Part shown: positions 13,156-20,460 of the stretch, in pieces
How the letters are laid out: each line of letters starts with the position of its first letter
How positions within the stretch are numbered: the stretch's first letter is position 1
Assembly (NCBI GenBank): GCA_963664115.2
Contig: CAXWPJ010000012.1
Coordinates: forward strand, 96,001-160,000
DNA: 64,000 nucleotides
Direction of reading: 5' to 3'
Source of the DNA: Terriglobia bacterium
Lineage (GTDB): Bacteria; Acidobacteriota; Terriglobia; 20CM-2-55-15
Program-made: the position numbers and the translations under genes
Notes under the pieces: generated by a model
Told to the model about the DNA's origin: nothing
What the model saw: the letters and a program-made list of their open reading frames with translations, nothing else
Databases searched by the model: none

Positions 13156-13279
13156 AGCTCGAAATTACTATCCTAACATCTCTAATGGTTTGGAGTTTTC
13201 GTTCGAATTGTAGATACGGGCAGGCCGTTGAAAGCATTGTGGTCTCATGAGAGTGTTCACGCTAAGAACTTCGTGAAAC

Positions 13280-13480
13280 AAGATTTCGCTCGGTCGTTCA
13301 AGCGGCTGACCATCTCGCGCGCGTTCCACGCGTGGGCCGAACGACCGGCGACCCTCTCCATCATCCTTGATGGAGAGGCGTATTGGGGATTAAGAAATGT
13401 TGAAGCCGTTCTTAAAGATAACCCGCAGCGTTCCTCGCTGCGGGTGGACAACGAGGCGGTAGCCGAGGCGTCGGAGTAAT
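13280..13480 (-). ncRNA. Candidate structured RNA, copy 1 (GGA-loop hairpins)
   Basis: Homologous to 19102-19292. Shares a 25-nt identical block and AATCCCCAATA; hairpins ACCCGCAGCG-AGGAA-CGCTGCGGGT, CCTCTCCATC-AAGGAT-GATGGAGAGG and CGCGT-GGA-ACGCG inside a CGGTCGTTC/GAACGACCG stem. Confidence 0.6.
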
Positions 13481-13586
13481 TAGATAATCGGATCGAACCG
13501 CGCCAAACTGCTAATCACCGAATTACTTAATCAGGACGCCAGGAGAGACTAAGAACGCCGTCAACAGCACCGCTACAGCTGATATT

Positions 13587-14771
13587 TCAATCGACCCCGC
13601 CAAACCTCCGGAGTTGATCCAGATATCCCGAGTAATTCCTGAGCGTCTCGCCCATCGAATCGCCACCGAACTTTTCGGCTACGGCAGCCCCAAGAACCAG
13701 GGCCACCATGGACTCGGCGATGACCCCGGCCGCCGGTACAGTACAAGTATCTGAGCGTTCGTGCGCCGCCAAGAAGGGTTCCTTCGAAATCATGTCCACA
13801 GAACGGAGGGCTTTCTTGAGCGTAGGGATAGGCTTCAGATACCCGATTACCCGAACATCCTCGCCGTTGGTCATTCCCCCTTCTATGCCGCCGGCTCGAT
13901 TCGACAACCGCACGAAACGGCCCGTTTCCGGATCGAAGGTGATTTCGTCATGGGAAACCGAGCCACGAAGTCCTGCGATACTGACGCCGTCGCCAATTTC
14001 AACAGCCTTGACCGCGTTGATCGACATGATTGCCTGGGCGAGCCGGCCGTCAATTTTTAAGTCCCAGCCGGTATGCGATCCCAAACCAAGAGGCGTGTTT
14101 CGCACGACGACTTCAAAGGTACCCCCGATCGTATCCCCGTCTTTCTGCGCTCCCTCGATCGCGGCGACCATGCGCTTCGAATAGTCTTCGAGGACGCAAT
14201 GCACGACTGTGTCATTGCGAACCGATTCGAGCTGTTCCCAAGAAACAGAAAAACCATCCGGGACCTTGACCCGACCGATTGCTGTTGTGTGACTCAGTAT
14301 GTCCACATCGAAAGCCCTCAGGAACTCTTTGGCCACTGCACCCGCAGCTACACGCGCCGTGGTTTCGCGCGCGCTCGAGCGTTCAAGAATATTTCGGGCA
14401 TCCGATTGATCAAATTTCTGAGAGCCGACGAGGTCCGCATGTCCGGGCCTGGGCCGGGTGACGCGTCTTTTCTCCGCGACTTCGGTCGAAACCGGCCCGA
14501 CCGACATCACGCCTTCCCAGTTCGGCCAGTCCCGATTCTCGATCAGCAGGGCAATGGGACTCCCCAGAGTCCGACCGTGCCTCACTCCGGAAAGCACGCG
14601 AACCTGGTCCGACTCGATCTTCATGCGCCCGCCACGGCCATATCCTCCCTGACGGCGCTTCAGTTCAGCGTTGATGAAATCTATACTCAGATCCAGATTC
14701 GCCGGAACGCCATCCACGATCGTGACCAGCGCCTGCCCGTGGGACTCACCCGCGGTCTTAAAGCTCAGCAT
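13587..14771 (-). CDS. aroC: Chorismate synthase
   Basis: True start MLSFKTAGESHG; RRQGGYGRGGRM, RPRPGHADL, ERSSARETTARVA, ERSD. Confidence 0.96.
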   Translation of the reverse strand: MLSFKTAGESHGQALVTIVDGVPANLDLSIDFINAELKRRQGGYGRGGRMKIESDQVRVLSGVRHGRTLGSPIALLIENRDWPNWEGVMSVGPVSTEVAEKRRVTRPRPGHADLVGSQKFDQSDARNILERSSARETTARVAAGAVAKEFLRAFDVDILSHTTAIGRVKVPDGFSVSWEQLESVRNDTVVHCVLEDYSKRMVAAIEGAQKDGDTIGGTFEVVVRNTPLGLGSHTGWDLKIDGRLAQAIMSINAVKAVEIGDGVSIAGLRGSVSHDEITFDPETGRFVRLSNRAGGIEGGMTNGEDVRVIGYLKPIPTLKKALRSVDMISKEPFLAAHERSDTCTVPAAGVIAESMVALVLGAAVAEKFGGDSMGETLRNYSGYLDQLRRFGGVD

Positions 14772-14928
14772 TTGACCAGTATAGCAGTCCCCCTGCCCGT
14801 CGGCCGGGACTCGATAAACCCATAAGTCAGAGCTGGGGTTCAAACCTCTCGAGCGCTTCGAAACCTTAGCGGTCCACCGACGAGCATCGTTGACCCTAAA
14901 AGGGGTCTTCCGATACGATGACCTCGTA

Positions 14929-15687
14929 ATGTTTTTCAGCCCGAAGACGCTCGTCATCGAGATACAGGGACTCTCAATGATGACAGTCCGTGCACTCCTG
15001 GGCGCATTTAGGCCCCCGTTCTACTTTCGTGAAATCCTGATTCAAATGGACCACGTCGGGGTCCAGTCGATGACCATCATCATCCTGACTGGGTTTTTCA
15101 CCGGCGCGGTCCTCGCCCTTCAAACTTCATCAACACTGGCCACGTTCGGCGCCGTCGGTCTGACAGGGTCTCTCGTGTCGATTTCCTTGGTTCGGGAACT
15201 CGGGCCGGTGCTGGCAGCTCTGATGGTGGCCGGTCGTGTCGGCTCCGGAATGGCATCAGAACTGGGCTCGATGAAGGTCACCGAACAGATCAATGCGATG
15301 CGCGCCCTGGGAACCGATCCCATCAAGAAACTGGTTGTACCCCGCATCTTCGCCACCGTCGCGATGCAACCGCTGCTGACGATAATTGCGGATGCGGTGG
15401 GGGTGATCGGCGGCCTCTTCGTAGCTGTAGGTCTGCTGCATATTTCTGCGAACCTCTATCTGAGTTCGGCATGGGATGTTCTCAGCTATAACGACATCCT
15501 GGGGGGCCTTCTCAAACCTCTTGTCTTCGGCGCAATTATCTCTACGGTCAGTTGTTACACTGGTCTGAGCACCGAAGGAGGCACGCAGGGAGTCGGCCGC
15601 TCCACGACACGCGCGGTGGTTGCGTCCTCGGTTCTGATCCTGGTCTCGGATTTCTTTCTAACGCGCCTCATTCAGACGTATTCATGA
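14929..15687 (+). CDS. mlaE: MlaE-family lipid ABC permease
   Basis: RELGPVLAALMVAGRVGSGMASELGSMKVTEQINAM, GVGRSTTRAVV; start uncertain (14890 or 14929). Confidence 0.92.
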   Translation: MFFSPKTLVIEIQGLSMMTVRALLGAFRPPFYFREILIQMDHVGVQSMTIIILTGFFTGAVLALQTSSTLATFGAVGLTGSLVSISLVRELGPVLAALMVAGRVGSGMASELGSMKVTEQINAMRALGTDPIKKLVVPRIFATVAMQPLLTIIADAVGVIGGLFVAVGLLHISANLYLSSAWDVLSYNDILGGLLKPLVFGAIISTVSCYTGLSTEGGTQGVGRSTTRAVVASSVLILVSDFFLTRLIQTYS

Positions 15688-16523
15688 AAACGCTGGGTCA
15701 GAAGCAGGTATCAGGAACCAACTCATCCTCCGGTGTCATCCTTGAACTTCGAAATGTAACGAAGTTCTACGGCGACCTGCGGGTGCTCGACGACGTGTCG
15801 TTTCAGCTCAGGGCGGGAGAGACGAAGATCATTCTCGGCGGTAGCGGCTCTGGAAAGTCAACCATGTTGAAGTTGATGATGGGACTGGAACGTCCTGACG
15901 ATGGGACGGTCATGATAGAAGGTCAGGACATCACGCGCATGAACGAGCGGACGCTCGGCCGGATTCGACCGAAGATCGGCATGGTGTTCCAGGAATCAGG
16001 ACTGTTCGATTCTCTCTCCGTCTTTGACAACGTCGCTTACCGCCTCTATGAGTTGAACCTCGACGAGGATGAAATCGAGGAACGAGTCCGAAGAGTTCTC
16101 GGTTTTGTTGGCCTGGAAGAAGCGATTGACCGTATGCCGTCTGAACTGTCGGGCGGTATGAAGCGGCGCGGCGCGTTGGCACGGACTCTGGTTTCTGAAC
16201 CCAAGATCATGCTCTACGACGAACCGACTGCCGGTCTGGATCCAGTTACCTCGCGCCGCATCAACGAGCTCATCATACGGTTACGGGATACGCAGGGAGT
16301 CTCGGGCGTGTTCGTTACCCATCGATTGCGTGATGCGTTTACACTGGCGTCTGAATACGCCCTGGAATCTAACGGCAGTTTACAGTTCAAGCGAGAGGAC
16401 GGTACTTTTTGTCTGGCCCACACCCGCTTTGTCATGCTCAATCTGGGCAAGATCATTTTTGAAGGACCCGACGAAGTACTCCGAGAGTCGAAAGACCCTT
16501 ACATACAGAAATTTTTATCTTGA
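15684..16523 (+). CDS. mlaF: MlaF-family ABC ATPase
   Basis: GGSGSGKS, LSGGMKRR, YDEPTAGLDP, DPYIQKFL; ATG at 15684 overlaps the mlaE stop. Confidence 0.92.
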   Translation: MKTLGQKQVSGTNSSSGVILELRNVTKFYGDLRVLDDVSFQLRAGETKIILGGSGSGKSTMLKLMMGLERPDDGTVMIEGQDITRMNERTLGRIRPKIGMVFQESGLFDSLSVFDNVAYRLYELNLDEDEIEERVRRVLGFVGLEEAIDRMPSELSGGMKRRGALARTLVSEPKIMLYDEPTAGLDPVTSRRINELIIRLRDTQGVSGVFVTHRLRDAFTLASEYALESNGSLQFKREDGTFCLAHTRFVMLNLGKIIFEGPDEVLRESKDPYIQKFLS

Positions 16524-16672
16524 ACAGTCTGTTATTCGTAGCTTGAGAAATCGGTTTGGCGCATCCGTCCGACTAACGGTTCGGGCCCGCGTAATGATAA
16601 TTTAATCGTTAAGCTTAACGGTTAGCAGCCCGGCGGACACTCCGCCACCCACTGCTTGGGAAGGGGACTACC

Positions 16673-17749
16673 ATGGCAACCCGTCAATCAGTATCCTGGA
16701 TCGAACTACGTGTCGGCATCCTCGTCCTCGCCAGTTTTGTGCTATTGGCAGCCGCAATCTTCTTTGTGGGTGGCGAGACGGGTTTCTTCACTCCAACGTA
16801 CACGATTACAACTTACTTCGAATCGGCAAACGGCATGAACACGGGCGCCGAAGTATGGCTGGAGGGGGTCACGGTGGGAAATGTAAGCAGCGTTCGGCTT
16901 TCGAACCTGCCCGAACCGGAACGATCTGTCGCTGTCGAATTGAGCATAGACCAGCAGTTTCAGAACCTGATCCTCTCCGACTCACTCGTCACCGTACAGA
17001 CCATCGGCCTGCTTGGCGACAGCTACGTGGACATCGCGCGCGGCGCCGCGACCGGCGACCCGCTACCTGATGGAGGCACGCTGCAGGGACAGGGCGCCGG
17101 TGATATTCGGGAACTGATCACGGGAACCAACGACATCATCGCTAACCTGGGAATCCTCAGTGACCGCGTACAACAGATCGCCAGTCAGATACAAGAAGGA
17201 GAAGGCACGTTGGGCCGATTTTTGACCGATACGTCCGTTTTCGACAACGCAAACGACATCGTGTTGGAAGCCAGCCAACTCGTACGGGATGTGCGTACCG
17301 GTGATGGCACTCTCGGTCGGCTTATATCCGACGATGTCCTGTTTACCCGGATTACCGCCGCGGTCGACCGAATGGAATCGGTGTTCGCCGACGTGGATAG
17401 CGGCGAAGGGACGCTTGGAAAGTTCATTCACGATCCAACAATATATGACCAGGCCAGCGAGCTGGTTCAAAAGGCGAGTAATGTCGTGGATCGATTGGAA
17501 CGGGGCGAAGGCACTCTCGGTCGGCTGAGCCAGGACGACACCCTCTTCGTCGAAGCGCGGACGGCGATGGAAAGCGTCTCGACCATGGTCTCGAACGTGG
17601 CCAACAGCGAAGGGACCGCGGGCCGGCTAATCAACGATCCGTCCCTCTATAACAACGTCAACCAGGCGGTCTCGGAGGTGTTGAAACTGGTCTACGATTT
17701 CAGACAGGACCCTGGAAGATTCCTCACCATCAATTTCAGACTCTTTTGA
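16673..17749 (+). CDS. mlaD: MCE/MlaD-family protein with long repeated helical extension
   Basis: ELRVG + TM, GVTVGNV, GLLGDSYVDI; five G[ED]GTLG[RK]-type repeats. Confidence 0.9.
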   Translation: MATRQSVSWIELRVGILVLASFVLLAAAIFFVGGETGFFTPTYTITTYFESANGMNTGAEVWLEGVTVGNVSSVRLSNLPEPERSVAVELSIDQQFQNLILSDSLVTVQTIGLLGDSYVDIARGAATGDPLPDGGTLQGQGAGDIRELITGTNDIIANLGILSDRVQQIASQIQEGEGTLGRFLTDTSVFDNANDIVLEASQLVRDVRTGDGTLGRLISDDVLFTRITAAVDRMESVFADVDSGEGTLGKFIHDPTIYDQASELVQKASNVVDRLERGEGTLGRLSQDDTLFVEARTAMESVSTMVSNVANSEGTAGRLINDPSLYNNVNQAVSEVLKLVYDFRQDPGRFLTINFRLF

Positions 17750-17788
17750 GCGCACCGCCCCGACGGGCCCAGCGCAGGGAGACACTCG

Positions 17789-18256
17789 ATGAAATTGGAA
17801 GCTAGGAAGAAAATAGAAGAAGAAGTCAAGACGCTCGAAAAGGAACTGAAGACCGAGCTCCCGCGCGCACTGAAGACAGCTGTCGCAATGGGAGATCTCC
17901 GTGAAAACGCCGAGTACCACGCAGCAAAGGAACGGCAGGACTTCGTCCAGGCCCGATTGAGCCAACTCAGGAAGCGGCTTTCGGACCTGTCGATGATCAA
18001 CCTCGACAAGATCCCCCGGGATAGAATTTCGCTCGGATCAACGGTCAAGCTTTACGATGTAGAAAATGAGGAAGAAATCACCTACAAACTTGTGACTACT
18101 GAGGACGCAAATCTATCCGAAGGCGCGATTTCCACCACGTCTCCAATCGGCAGGAGTCTACTCGGCAAGCAGGACGGCGACGCCGTATCCGTGAGAATTC
18201 CCGCCGGAGCCCGATCCTTCGAAGTCATCAGCTTTACAACGATTCACGACGACTAG
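17789..18256 (+). CDS. greA: Transcription elongation factor GreA/GreB
   Basis: GDLRENAEYHAAKE, ISTTSPIGRSLLGK. Confidence 0.93.
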   Translation: MKLEARKKIEEEVKTLEKELKTELPRALKTAVAMGDLRENAEYHAAKERQDFVQARLSQLRKRLSDLSMINLDKIPRDRISLGSTVKLYDVENEEEITYKLVTTEDANLSEGAISTTSPIGRSLLGKQDGDAVSVRIPAGARSFEVISFTTIHDD

Positions 18257-18355
18257 AGCGAGAAACCTTTCTCAACTGCGATTTGTCCGGGACCGGAAAT
18301 TAGCGTAAAATTCCACGGATGGGGGTATCCGGGCACACCCCAAACTAAAGACCTG

Positions 18356-19036
18356 ATGACATTTCACACGATCAGCGGAAAGATCGGCAAGAGCGGCAAA
18401 AAGGCTCAGGATTTTCTCGTTGACCGCCTGTCCAGGCACCGCGTCAACCCCAACATCCTCACCTTCATTGGCCTCGGAGTAAACATCTTCGCGACAGTAC
18501 TCTTCGCCAAGGGCATGTTCTTCTGGGCTGGGTTCGTCGTGCTGTTCGCCGGGGTCTTTGACATGCTCGATGGCGCCGTCGCCCGCGTCACCAAAACCGT
18601 AACGACTTTTGGAGCATTCCTGGATTCCGTTATCGACCGGTACTCCGACATGTTGATGCTGTTCGGACTGCTCATTTGGTACGCCAAGATGGACCGCATG
18701 TTCTATGTCGGCCTCACCGCCATGGTCATCATCGGTTCCGTCATGACCAGCTACACCCGCGCCCGCGCCGAGTCCCTGATCCCCGCCTGCAAAGTCGGCT
18801 TCCTGGAACGCGCCGAACGGATCGTGCTTCTGATCATCGGGGCCTGGACCGACCGTATGGCCGCCATACTCTGGATCATGGCAATCCTTACCAATTGGAC
18901 GGTTTTCCAGAGAATCTGGTACACCTGGAAGGAAGCCAGCAGACTCGAGCGGCAGGAACTTTCTCTCGCGATTGAAGAAGAACAGGACCCCTCAAAGGAA
19001 GCCGAAGTCGCCGCAAAAGCCTCACTTCGAGCGTAA
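18356..19036 (+). CDS. CDP-alcohol phosphatidyltransferase (PIP-synthase-like)
   Basis: PNILT, DMLDGAVAR...FGAFLDSVIDR signature, SYTRARAE and ERAER motifs. Confidence 0.9.
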   Translation: MTFHTISGKIGKSGKKAQDFLVDRLSRHRVNPNILTFIGLGVNIFATVLFAKGMFFWAGFVVLFAGVFDMLDGAVARVTKTVTTFGAFLDSVIDRYSDMLMLFGLLIWYAKMDRMFYVGLTAMVIIGSVMTSYTRARAESLIPACKVGFLERAERIVLLIIGAWTDRMAAILWIMAILTNWTVFQRIWYTWKEASRLERQELSLAIEEEQDPSKEAEVAAKASLRA

Positions 19037-19101
19037 TAGTCCTGCTTTCTGAGTCAGAGATTCGTCACTTAACAGATTCGTCTTTCCGATCTGATCATTT
19101 T

Positions 19102-19292
19102 ATTACTCCGACGCCTCGGCTACCGCGTCTTTCCTCTGAAAGCGGTCCACCCGCACCGGAGGACCGGTGCGGGTTATTCTGGGACAGGAGCTAACGTTCC
19201 GCCAATCCCCAATAAGCCTTGCCATCAGGAAGATGGCGAGGGTCGCCGGTCGTTCGGCTAGGATGGCCGATTGAACGACCGAGCGAAATCTT
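19102..19292 (+). ncRNA. Candidate structured RNA, copy 2 (GGA-loop hairpins)
   Basis: Homologous to the reverse complement of 13280-13480. Hairpins ACCCGCACCGG-AGGA-CCGGTGCGGGT, CCTTGCCATC-AGGAA-GATGGCGAGG and TCGGCTA-GGA-TGGCCGA; G-U pairs indicate the + strand. Confidence 0.6.
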
Positions 19293-19408
19293 AATTGCAG
19301 ACCTTTAAATCCACTGCACCTGGATACAAGCGACCATTTGCGTTCAAATTTCGGTCTCAGGGAGTGCCAATATAGGAAGGAAAATCTCGAAGCTATCCGA
19401 ACGTCCGT

Positions 19409-20098
19409 CTATCGAATGACATCCCCTGGAATGTCCAAGTTGAAAACGTCATTGGAAATGCGGCCGTTAAGCACGATGTCGGAATATTTCACGATCTGAT
19501 AGTCACCGCCGGCTTCGTTCAACCGGCTCTGTATGGGAATCCATCGGCTCTGATCGACCCACAATTGAATCGTGGGAAACATACCGGCAACGCGTTCGGA
19601 TTTCGGTTCAAGCTTCAAAATCGATGTTTGAATGCCATCCAGGATCTCCTCGCCTACAAGGACCACATCGTAATCGTCCCTGAGCCTCTGGTTCGAAGCT
19701 CCGAATCCAATCATCAGGAATTCCGCAACGTTCCCTCGCTCGCCGAGATCATGTTCCTCCAGAACATTGATCCGAGGACGGTACAGTTGCGCCTTGCCGT
19801 CGGCTACAAGCAAGTGCTGTTCAGCCGGTTCGCTGATGCTGAGTCGAATGCGGCTGTCTTCGCCGGTCCCAGCAAAATACACTTTGCCGGAGTCCGTGCT
19901 GCGGACGTTGACAAAAATTACAACCTTGGTGCGCTCGATGTCGGCCTCGAGATTACGAAATGCCCGGCCGGCCAAGTCCATGTGTTCCAACACCGCGTCC
20001 AGACCGGTGCCGGCCTGGGCGCCCGGACCGGTCTGAGGAAAGGCCAGGGGGCTCCCGAACAGGGACACCAGGGTCAATAACCACAACAGGGATTTCAT
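19409..20098 (-). CDS. LolA-like periplasmic lipoprotein carrier
   Basis: Signal peptide, LEADIERTK..SGKVYF, LLVADGKAQLYRP, LKLEPK, IQLWVD..WIP LolA-fold pattern; ATG overlaps the upstream stop. Confidence 0.78.
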   Translation of the reverse strand: MKSLLWLLTLVSLFGSPLAFPQTGPGAQAGTGLDAVLEHMDLAGRAFRNLEADIERTKVVIFVNVRSTDSGKVYFAGTGEDSRIRLSISEPAEQHLLVADGKAQLYRPRINVLEEHDLGERGNVAEFLMIGFGASNQRLRDDYDVVLVGEEILDGIQTSILKLEPKSERVAGMFPTIQLWVDQSRWIPIQSRLNEAGGDYQIVKYSDIVLNGRISNDVFNLDIPGDVIR

Positions 20099-20460
20099 TG
20101 CTGCACTACCCAAAACGAATACGCCGCGATGGTGCCGCGGGTATTGTCTATGGGCTCAGTCCGGTAGATGTCTATGGGTTCGTCCGATTGAAGAAACGCC
20201 TGCAGGGTGTCGCGTGCCTCCAGTTCCAGTCTTGGGGACGGATTCGCAAAGATCCTCGCATTGACCTGAACCATATAGACCACGTTCCCGTCATCGTCGA
20301 GAACCCTTTGAACCTCGTCCGGGGGAGACAATCTTCTGAAGTCGGGACGGTCGTTGAAAGCAACCTGAGGAATCATAAAAATGGCAATCAGAATCAGTCC
20401 GCACAGGACGTCGTACTGAAAGGAACCGCGACCAAATTTCCAGATGATCCAGCTTTTCAT
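20095..20460 (-). CDS. Small membrane-anchored hypothetical protein
   Basis: RGSFQYDVLCGLILIAIF TM segment; tightly packed between the ABC ATPase and the LolA-like gene. Confidence 0.72.
   Translation of the reverse strand: MKSWIIWKFGRGSFQYDVLCGLILIAIFMIPQVAFNDRPDFRRLSPPDEVQRVLDDDGNVVYMVQVNARIFANPSPRLELEARDTLQAFLQSDEPIDIYRTEPIDNTRGTIAAYSFWVVQQ

What the first reader, a model, noticed from the sequence alone, without database searches (positions are those of the whole stretch)
13280..19292. Two paralogous ~200-nt structured RNAs with covarying GGA-loop hairpins (candidate CsrB/RsmZ-like family)
Seen: 13280-13480 (-) and 19102-19292 (+) are homologous non-coding elements whose stems are conserved while the sequence changes. 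Pair 1 is ACCCGCAGCG-AGGAA-CGCTGCGGGT versus ACCCGCACCGG-AGGA-CCGGTGCGGGT. Pair 2 is CCTCTCCATC-AAGGAT-GATGGAGAGG versus CCTTGCCATC-AGGAA-GATGGCGAGG, with a U-A to G-C compensatory change and a C-G to U-G change. Pair 3 is a shared CGGTCGTTC/GAACGACCG stem capped by different hairpins that both loop out GGA. All three G-U pairs in copy 2 favour the GGA strand. Established: multiple loop-exposed GGA motifs are the hallmark of CsrA/RsmA-sequestering sRNAs, and UCAAGGAUGA in copy 1 matches the (A/U)CANGGANG(U/A) consensus. Copy 2 lies between convergent genes, so it is not a 5' leader. Inference: a redundant pair of protein-sponge sRNAs in a lineage where I know of none described.
Basis: partly seen in the sequence, partly recalled or inferred. 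Interest (0 to 1): 0.82.

Follow-up and report, generated by a model that had tools for sequence, protein, structure and literature searches.

The report
Mini-transposon with conserved GGA hairpin core
The two hairpin-rich stretches are two of about 60 copies of a small non-coding jumping DNA element in an Acidobacteria genome; its ends have decayed while its inner hairpins, whose loops match the binding motif of the regulator CsrA, stay conserved, likely through exchange between copies, and no RNA from it has been shown.

Summary
The hairpins, covariation and GGA loops are real, but the two stretches are not a pair. They are 2 of 64 hits (42 full cores) in this Terriglobia genome, with 61 or more model matches in each of 4 congeners. 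The whole element is about 280 bp, has CTAG-ended terminal inverted repeats, and is missing at 42 of 51 orthologous sites, some with a clean single CTAG. The unusual part: ends and linker diverge at the neutral rate (0.62-0.69 against 0.65) while the hairpin core keeps 0.90-0.94, and its loops fit the CsrA A(N)GGAX code. Against a sponge role: no Rfam family, no fitting promoter or terminator, no strand bias in G-U pairs or orientation, copies without GGA-strand read-through are equally conserved, and the canonical CsrA sits beside fliW. Best reading: a MITE whose core is kept and shuffled by copy-to-copy exchange; a CsrA-binding RNA role is the main rival (about 0.25). The scan noted this kind before, in this genome and three others.

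The parts
13249..13542 (-). Copy 1, whole element (MITE) between aroC and def
   Evidence: ends placed against the family consensus; site also filled in G002, no core in G001, G003, G004, G005
13519..13542 (-). Copy 1 left terminal inverted repeat, decayed (6 of 24 mismatches to consensus)
13250..13273 (+). Copy 1 right terminal inverted repeat, decayed (9 of 24 mismatches)
13461..13472 (-). Copy 1 conserved 5' motif S0 (0.91-0.95 identity to consensus in all five genomes)
13421..13445 (-). Copy 1 hairpin 1, AGGAA loop, followed by a T-rich run (terminator-like match)
13353..13378 (-). Copy 1 hairpin 2, six-base ANGGAX loop
13291..13347 (-). Copy 1 hairpin 3, long-cap type
19041..19323 (+). 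Copy 2, whole element between convergent genes; right end placed by spacing only, too decayed to match
   Evidence: site filled in G002 by a copy lacking hairpin 2, no core in G001, G003, G004, G005
19041..19064 (+). Copy 2 left terminal inverted repeat, decayed (7 of 24 mismatches)
19110..19121 (+). Copy 2 conserved 5' motif S0
19149..19174 (+). Copy 2 hairpin 1, AGGA loop
19217..19241 (+). Copy 2 hairpin 2, AGGAA loop
19247..19281 (+). Copy 2 hairpin 3, short-cap type with AGGAU loop
12646..13155 (-). Flanking gene def (peptide deformylase, PF01327)
13587..14957 (-). Flanking gene aroC (chorismate synthase, PF01264); ORF as listed, the true start may lie further in
18356..19036 (+). Flanking CDP-alcohol phosphatidyltransferase gene (PF01066)
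19409..20113 (-). Flanking LolA-like gene (PF17131)

Best explanation
The two stretches are copies of a roughly 280-bp non-coding repeat with CTAG-ended terminal inverted repeats and empty orthologous sites, a MITE that was likely spread by IS630-type transposases working in trans, and whose three-hairpin core is likely kept and reshuffled by DNA exchange between copies after the ends have died. Steps shown: copy number, terminal repeats, filled and empty sites, neutral decay of ends and linker, conserved and covarying core, different hairpin alleles at orthologous sites, and one subfamily wrapped in new IS630 ends. Steps inferred: which transposase moved it; that gene conversion centred on the hairpins (possibly started by hairpin cleavage or by the RAYT-like Y1 enzyme found in the same genomes) keeps the core alike; that template switching makes some of the double changes and the flipped loops. 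I put about 0.9 on the MITE identity and about 0.5 on this account of the core.
For: 64 hits, 42 full cores; about tenfold depth over both cores in four other public runs. Terminal repeat consensus on both sides, clear in G002 copies, within 30% mismatch at 42 left and 39 right ends of 108 full copies against 0.0 and 0.1 in random controls. 42 of 51 two-sided orthologous sites have no core in G000; L080 and L081 show 279-280 bp inserted at a single CTAG. 35 DDE_3 matches in G000 (IS630 by NF033545), CTAG-ended; 5 of 34 lie within 200 nt of a core, 0.16 expected at random. Four aligned G001 copies carry the old element inside new IS630 ends. Orthologous copies carry different hairpin alleles and over 7 pairs are hardly closer in the core than random cross-genome pairs (H2 0.86 against 0.83, H3 0.78 against 0.80); regions are weakly correlated among copies (H1-H3 0.19, H0-H3 -0.07). 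Flipped loops in 6 of 334. Copies with and without an upstream gene reading into the GGA strand are equally kept: GGA 80 of 107 against 41 of 51, unpaired stem cells 5.6% against 5.8%. No orientation bias: 9 against 14 in co-oriented gaps.
Against: Exchange alone should also even out the 39-nt linker between hairpins 1 and 2, which is as diverged as the ends (0.60-0.67). It does not explain why GGA is kept next to free loop bases (20 of 180 against 42 of 120 non-major cells in 60 hairpin-1 loops; cells not independent). No intact transposon with matching ends and the core was found: best ungapped end match 18 of 26 (IS630 of G002), and an IS4-family end scores about as well with a gap. G003 has 61 matches but no DDE_3 hit. 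The Y1 genes are not flanked by intact modules.
Confidence: 0.5

Rival explanations
1. The MITE carries, and has amplified, a CsrA-binding RNA module. Copies are transcribed on the GGA strand (own promoter or read-through) and are kept by selection because together they titrate CsrA, alongside FliW.
For: Loops fit A(N)GGAX: in hairpin 2, A 97%, G 87%, G 97%, A 97%, X 75% majority; in hairpin 3 the first four bases 97-99%. One-base insertions fall at the N position in the few longer loops. Closing pairs match RsmZ stem-loops (PMC4005645). GGA kept beside free bases. Core 0.90-0.94 against neutral 0.65 at an orthologous site; 1 of 77 variable columns in H2-H3 against 19 of 104 and 9 of 40 in end and linker of a young subfamily. 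82 of 192 perfect A(N)GGAX hairpins in the genome lie in the element. Distant relatives in genus g3 keep AGGAA in 33 of 41 loops with a changed stem; they occur in G044 and G045, which have CsrA, and not in G006 and G016, which have none. L001 CsrA keeps R44.
Against: No conserved sigma-70 promoter (0 matches at copy 1, one 9-of-12 match at copy 2); no U-run terminator at the 3' end except one weak match in copy 1. No G-U bias, no orientation bias, no effect of read-through. CsrA is in 16 of 18 family genomes but multi-copy element in only 6 of 34. The canonical csrA lies in a flagellar fliW-csrA cluster; fliW is reported absent from species with known Csr sRNAs (PMC4682653, passages). The second CsrA-like protein has T at position 44. 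Long caps keep GGA in 9 of 28. Among the six best g3 loci aligned, only one (L151) kept hairpins 2 and 3; most g3 copies show the 5' module alone, often as inverted doublets.
Confidence: 0.25
2. The core is a REP/REPIN-like DNA module copied by a RAYT-like Y1 enzyme; the old IS630-type ends are passengers and the GGA is only the complement of a pyrimidine DNA loop.
For: One Y1 clade (54% identity or more to the G002 protein) is in all 7 genomes with many copies and none of the other 28; best NCBIfam match is REP-associated tyrosine transposase, below cut-off. In g3 the module forms inverted doublets and tandem arrays, with GTAG at the stem foot in 20 of 42. The only exact S0 12-mer outside known copies in G000 lies 129 nt behind a Y1 gene; a decayed module pair follows the G004 gene (E 0.002).
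Against: The co-distribution is one or two phylogenetic events; G046's protein joins the clade (100/98) with only one weak element match. No GTAG at that place in the window's genus. 6 of 8 clade loci have no module match better than E 0.6 nearby. Clean empty sites match the whole TIR-bounded 280 bp, not the core.
Confidence: 0.13
3. Copies are kept as two-way transcription terminators or 3' stabilisers at gene ends, like ERIC or Correia transcripts.
For: 30 of 57 copies lie between convergent genes against 15.5% of all gene pairs; only 4 of 57 in divergent gaps. Hairpin 1 of copy 1 scores as an intrinsic terminator.
Against: The same placement follows from tolerance of insertions and from TAG stop codons offering CTAG. 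It gives no reason for loop sequence conservation. Copy 2 has no terminator match.
Confidence: 0.1
4. One reading: two dedicated, redundant CsrB/RsmZ-like sRNA genes.
For: Motif and covariation; sub-threshold RsmZ and rsmX matches (E 3-9).
Against: About 60 copies, terminal repeats, both sites without a core in 4 of 5 relatives.
Confidence: 0.02

Closest known systems
Bacterial MITEs with TA/CTAG ends: RUP (proposed IS630-Spn1 partner), Correia/NEMIS, ERIC (review PMC2229807, passages)
   Same: Non-coding, dispersed, intergenic, terminal inverted repeats (24 bp, as listed for Correia), structured interior, association with IS copies.
   Different: Longer (about 280 bp), GC-rich; ends decay while the interior is conserved; interior is three GGA-loop hairpins; one subfamily is re-wrapped in ends of another IS630.
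CsrB/RsmZ/RsmX sRNAs (RF00166, RF02144, clan CL00106; PMC4005645, passages)
   Same: A(N)GGAX loops on C-G-closed stems, covarying stems, 2-3 GGA loops in 34 of 42 full copies by MFE.
   Different: Scores 16-19 bits against cut-offs of 44 and 56; no fitting promoter or terminator; about 60 mobile copies; host has FliW.
TwoAYGGAY RNA motif (RF01731; bioRxiv 10.64898/2026.09.22.753630, passages)
   Same: Multi-copy intergenic structured repeat with GGA loops, tens to about 200 copies per genome, doublets, function untested.
   Different: No match in G000, G002 or G044 at E 1 (nothing rang in the controls either); loops are AGGAX, not AYGGAY; no common basal stem found; terminal repeats present.
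REP/REPIN-RAYT systems (PMC5581495 and bioRxiv 10.1101/2021.07.10.451892, passages)
   Same: Conserved palindromes with variable spacers; inverted doublets and GTAG in the g3 relatives; low-copy Y1 gene in the same genomes.
   Different: In this genus the unit is a single TIR-bounded 280-bp element; Y1 genes are not flanked by intact repeats; Y1 score below the RAYT cut-off.
Bacillaceae-1 RNA (RF01690)
   Same: One sub-threshold match (E 6.5) on the opposite strand; its consensus loops are the reverse complement of these loops.
   Different: 20 bits against a cut-off of 35, in 1 of 20 loci; a lead only.

Membership tests
Bacterial MITE | Short, non-coding, many dispersed copies | tested here: met
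   64 hits in G000; 61-74 model matches (capped) in each congener
Bacterial MITE | Terminal inverted repeats | tested here: met
   24-bp consensus on both sides; decayed in the two window copies
Bacterial MITE | Filled and empty sites with target duplication | tested here: met
   42 of 51 sites without a core; single CTAG at clean empty sites, CTAG on both sides of L007 and L023; TA or CTAG duplication cannot be told apart
IS630-mobilised MITE | Ends matching a resident IS630 transposon | tested here: inconclusive
   best 18 of 26 ungapped; IS4-family end similar with a gap; met for the re-wrapped G001 subfamily
CsrB/RsmZ family sRNA | Rfam score at gathering threshold | tested here: not met
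CsrB/RsmZ family sRNA | Several A(N)GGAX motifs in hairpin loops | tested here: met
   PMC4005645
CsrB/RsmZ family sRNA | Stand-alone gene with promoter and intrinsic terminator at a conserved locus | tested here: not met
   only sigma-70-type promoters were scanned
CsrB/RsmZ family sRNA | RNA-binding CsrA in the genome | tested here: met
   L001 PF02599 with R44, beside fliW
CsrB/RsmZ family sRNA | Transcribed on the GGA strand and binds CsrA | not testable with these tools
   only assembled contigs of one recorded RNA run were available
TwoAYGGAY (RF01731) | Model match; two AYGGAY loops on a basal stem | tested here: not met
REPIN-RAYT | Inverted REP doublet with conserved tetranucleotide | tested here: inconclusive
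   seen in g3 relatives, not in the window's genus
REPIN-RAYT | RAYT gene flanked by cognate repeats | tested here: inconclusive
   remnants behind 2 of 8 clade loci, none intact; NF047646 below cut-off

The most novel reading that the evidence does not exclude
A transposon-amplified CsrA sponge: a MITE captured an Rsm-like hairpin cassette, spread it to dozens of gene ends (the search found 199 candidates in one congener), is re-mobilised by the ends of other IS elements as old ends die, and the host keeps the cassettes as a distributed RNA sink for CsrA in a lineage that also uses FliW, a combination that a review calls undetermined (PMC7652899).
Probability: 0.22. Interest if true: 0.82.

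Novelty: new variant of a known kind. Interest (0 to 1): 0.45.

Why it matters
As a MITE it is an ordinary kind of element in a little-studied lineage. It matters for the inverted conservation pattern: dead ends around a constrained, recombining hairpin core whose loops follow the CsrA code, and which gains new IS ends. That makes two open questions testable with short oligonucleotides and one small protein: whether Csr-type RNAs act in FliW-bearing bacteria, and what keeps multi-copy GGA-loop repeats (TwoAYGGAY and the like) conserved. It is also a caution: covariation plus GGA loops in two copies does not show an sRNA gene.

Tried and rejected
Rfam at gathering threshold over the window: 0; weak RsmZ, rsmX, P11, Bacillaceae-1 matches all far below cut-off. 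RNAalifold on 108 copies with flanks gave a poor consensus; its G-T:A-C count (24:4 on 7 pairs) was dominated by one allele and was replaced by per-hairpin counts. The first hairpin-1 loop profile mixed two loop types and was redone on one type. Expression: one run on record as RNA, contigs only, small share; nothing can be said on strand, ends or level. No contig joint skips either copy in four close public runs; contigs do not show absence. Search for an intact transposon holding the core: none among 30 DDE_3 loci, 14 genome loci or 18 metagenome loci. Most automatic empty-site alignments were not clean; only L080, L081 and, less cleanly, L085, L120, L130 and L117 are usable. Gene context rests on my own ORF caller (4250 genes; one miscall fixed). 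A small conserved peptide was considered by eye and dropped because the long cap changes the frame; not tested by a call. Literature searches for Acidobacteria + CsrA + small RNA (5 papers), MITE + CsrA + GGA (1) and MITE + IS630 + small RNA (7) listed nothing whose title or abstract start describes this element; supplements were not read, and those of Weinberg 2010 could bear on Acidobacteria motifs.
Full report
Observation. The quoted stems are in the sequence at the stated places, the two stretches align at 81% mean column identity and both fold far better than shuffles (z -5.5 and -4.7). Copy 1 lies between aroC and def, copy 2 between a CDP-alcohol phosphatidyltransferase gene and a convergent LolA-like gene. 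No Rfam family reaches its cut-off in the window.

It is a large family, not a pair. An iterated profile finds 64 hits in the 4.89-Mb genome, 42 with a full core. Depth over both cores is about ten times the flanks in four other public runs, and one contig spans copy 2 and its flanks with one difference, so this is no assembly artefact. BLAST finds the repeat in 4 of 4 congeners and 0 of 26 other relatives; a covariance model gives 61-74 matches (capped at 74 scored) in each congener. Matching records are titled Terriglobia MAGs (13 of 14 loci) and one Gammaproteobacteria MAG (L050).

It is a MITE. Homology runs about 70 nt before and 30 nt after the core and ends in a 24-bp inverted repeat that starts with CTAG. 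The repeats are clear in many G002 copies and match at 42 left and 39 right ends of 108 full copies, against 0.0 and 0.1 in random controls. Of 77 copies from other genomes, 51 could be anchored on both sides in G000: 42 sites have no core and 9 do, two of them in the opposite orientation (two of the 42 point to one decayed remnant). At two clean sites 279-280 bp are inserted at a single CTAG. Both window sites are filled in G002 and have no core in G001, G003, G004 and G005. IS630 elements (35 DDE_3 matches in G000) end in CTAG, and 5 of 34 lie within 200 nt of a core. The exact partner is open: the best ungapped end match is 18 of 26, and an IS4-family end is about as close with a gap. Four aligned G001 copies hold the old element inside new IS630 ends. 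A minority of copies have ends like those of IS1-like (2 left, 6 right) or IS1182-like elements (7 left, 3 right) against 0.1-0.9 expected, which suggests repeated re-wrapping (inference). Copies favour convergent gaps (30 of 57 against 15.5%) and avoid divergent ones (4 of 57).

The unusual part. Conservation is inside out. At the aroC-def site, G000 and G002 are 0.65 identical at fourfold sites (478 of 740); the element's ends and linker are at 0.63, 0.69 and 0.62, the core at 0.94, 0.93 and 0.90. Seven orthologous pairs give ends 0.53-0.64, linker 0.60, hairpins 0.78-0.86. In the young G001 subfamily hairpins 2-3 vary in 1 of 77 columns against 19 of 104 and 9 of 40 in end and linker. Stems covary (17 of 33 pairs). 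Yet orthologous cores carry different module alleles and are hardly closer than random cross-genome pairs, and regions are weakly linked among copies, which points to exchange between copies (inference).

The CsrA case. GGA is in 103 of 124, 100 of 119 and 87 of 91 loops (133 copies from five genomes plus L050, those outside G000 picked by similarity to copy 2, which favours conservation). Hairpins 2 and 3 follow A(N)GGAX with X the most variable base, on a C-G closing pair, as described for RsmZ (PMC4005645, passages). In 60 hairpin-1 loops the two bases before GGA vary three times as often as GGA. The element holds 82 of 192 perfect A(N)GGAX hairpins of the genome. The genome has two CsrA-family genes: L001 keeps R44 and sits with fliW and a flagellin-domain gene; L002 has T44. 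Distant relatives in genus g3 (55 and 30 matches in G044 and G045) mostly show the 5' motif and hairpin 1 with its AGGAA loop (33 of 41), as inverted doublets, arrays and some TIR-bounded units; two g3 genomes without CsrA have none.

Against it. No conserved sigma-70 promoter or 3' terminator. G-T and A-C departures are not significantly different (30:24, 14:14, 52:36). Orientation in co-oriented gaps is 9 against 14, and the 18 copies with no upstream gene reading into the GGA strand are as well kept as the 38 with one. Long caps of hairpin 3 keep GGA in 9 of 28; 6 loops are flipped. CsrA is in 16 of 18 family genomes and FliW in 13 of 18, far wider than the element. FliW is reported as anti-correlated with the BarA-UvrY sRNA system, with Acidobacteria named among likely FliW users (PMC4682653, passages); a review leaves joint action of FliW and sRNAs open (PMC7652899, passages). 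No usable RNA data.

The RAYT lead. One clade of Y1 proteins occurs in the 7 element-rich genomes and at that similarity in none of 28 others, but a G046 protein joins it, its branching follows the genus labels, and it scores below the RAYT cut-off. Remnants of the 5' module follow 2 of 8 such genes. This stays a lead.

Verdict. A real, covarying, GGA-looped core inside an approximately 280-bp MITE; not a pair of sRNA genes. I favour maintenance by copy-to-copy exchange (0.5 for the whole account), then a CsrA-binding RNA role (0.25), a REP/RAYT module (0.13) and a terminator role (0.10). Exchange does not fully explain the free linker or the fixed GGA, and that gap is the reason for the middling interest score. 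Earlier scan notes describe an IS630-type MITE core in this genome, which may be the same family (not verified: the sequence look-up did not return it), and GGA-hairpin repeats in three other genomes; they are unchecked notes and were not counted as evidence. Papers were seen as search listings or passages only, as marked; none in full, no supplements.

Noticed in passing
G000 whole genome: Heavy IS load: several families with tens of near-identical copies (self-BLAST counts of about 78, 56, 33 and 21), many CTAG-ended, although CTAG is sixfold under-represented (2910 against about 18400).
   Followed up: partly
L002:1402-1629 (-): Stand-alone CsrA-like protein (75 aa) whose Pfam match stops at residue 43 and which has T at position 44; a similar short match recurs in most family genomes. 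Possibly a non-binding or differently binding paralogue.
   Followed up: partly
L152 and other G044/G045 loci: REPIN-like inverted doublets and tandem arrays (spacing about 280 nt) of the S0-hairpin 1 module in genus g3, some inside CTAG-ended terminal repeats.
   Followed up: partly
L013, L055, L056, L061 (G001): Composite MITE: the old element with decayed ends nested in fresh ends of the resident IS630.
   Followed up: yes
G000:C10:490039-494639; L229-L235: RAYT-like Y1 clade with a shared upstream motif, one to three matches per genome; stop codons in the G000 second copy and in G004.
   Followed up: partly
L050: A full copy in a 3.8-kb contig of a MAG titled Gammaproteobacteria: transfer or mis-binning.
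   Followed up: no
L153 (G017:C1:3764186-3767375): Single match (51 bits) with a hairpin-2-like AGGAC loop in genus g4; could be an orphan or ancestral single-copy form.
   Followed up: no
L242 and G000:C10:484009-487416: IS1-like elements carrying cargo genes between their ends (an HTH/metallopeptidase-like ORF by eye in L242; another IS in C10).
   Followed up: no
one search run list: Earlier notes call the host a soil bacterium; the only habitat label shown among holders is a seawater metagenome (share 0.35). Habitat left open.
   Followed up: no
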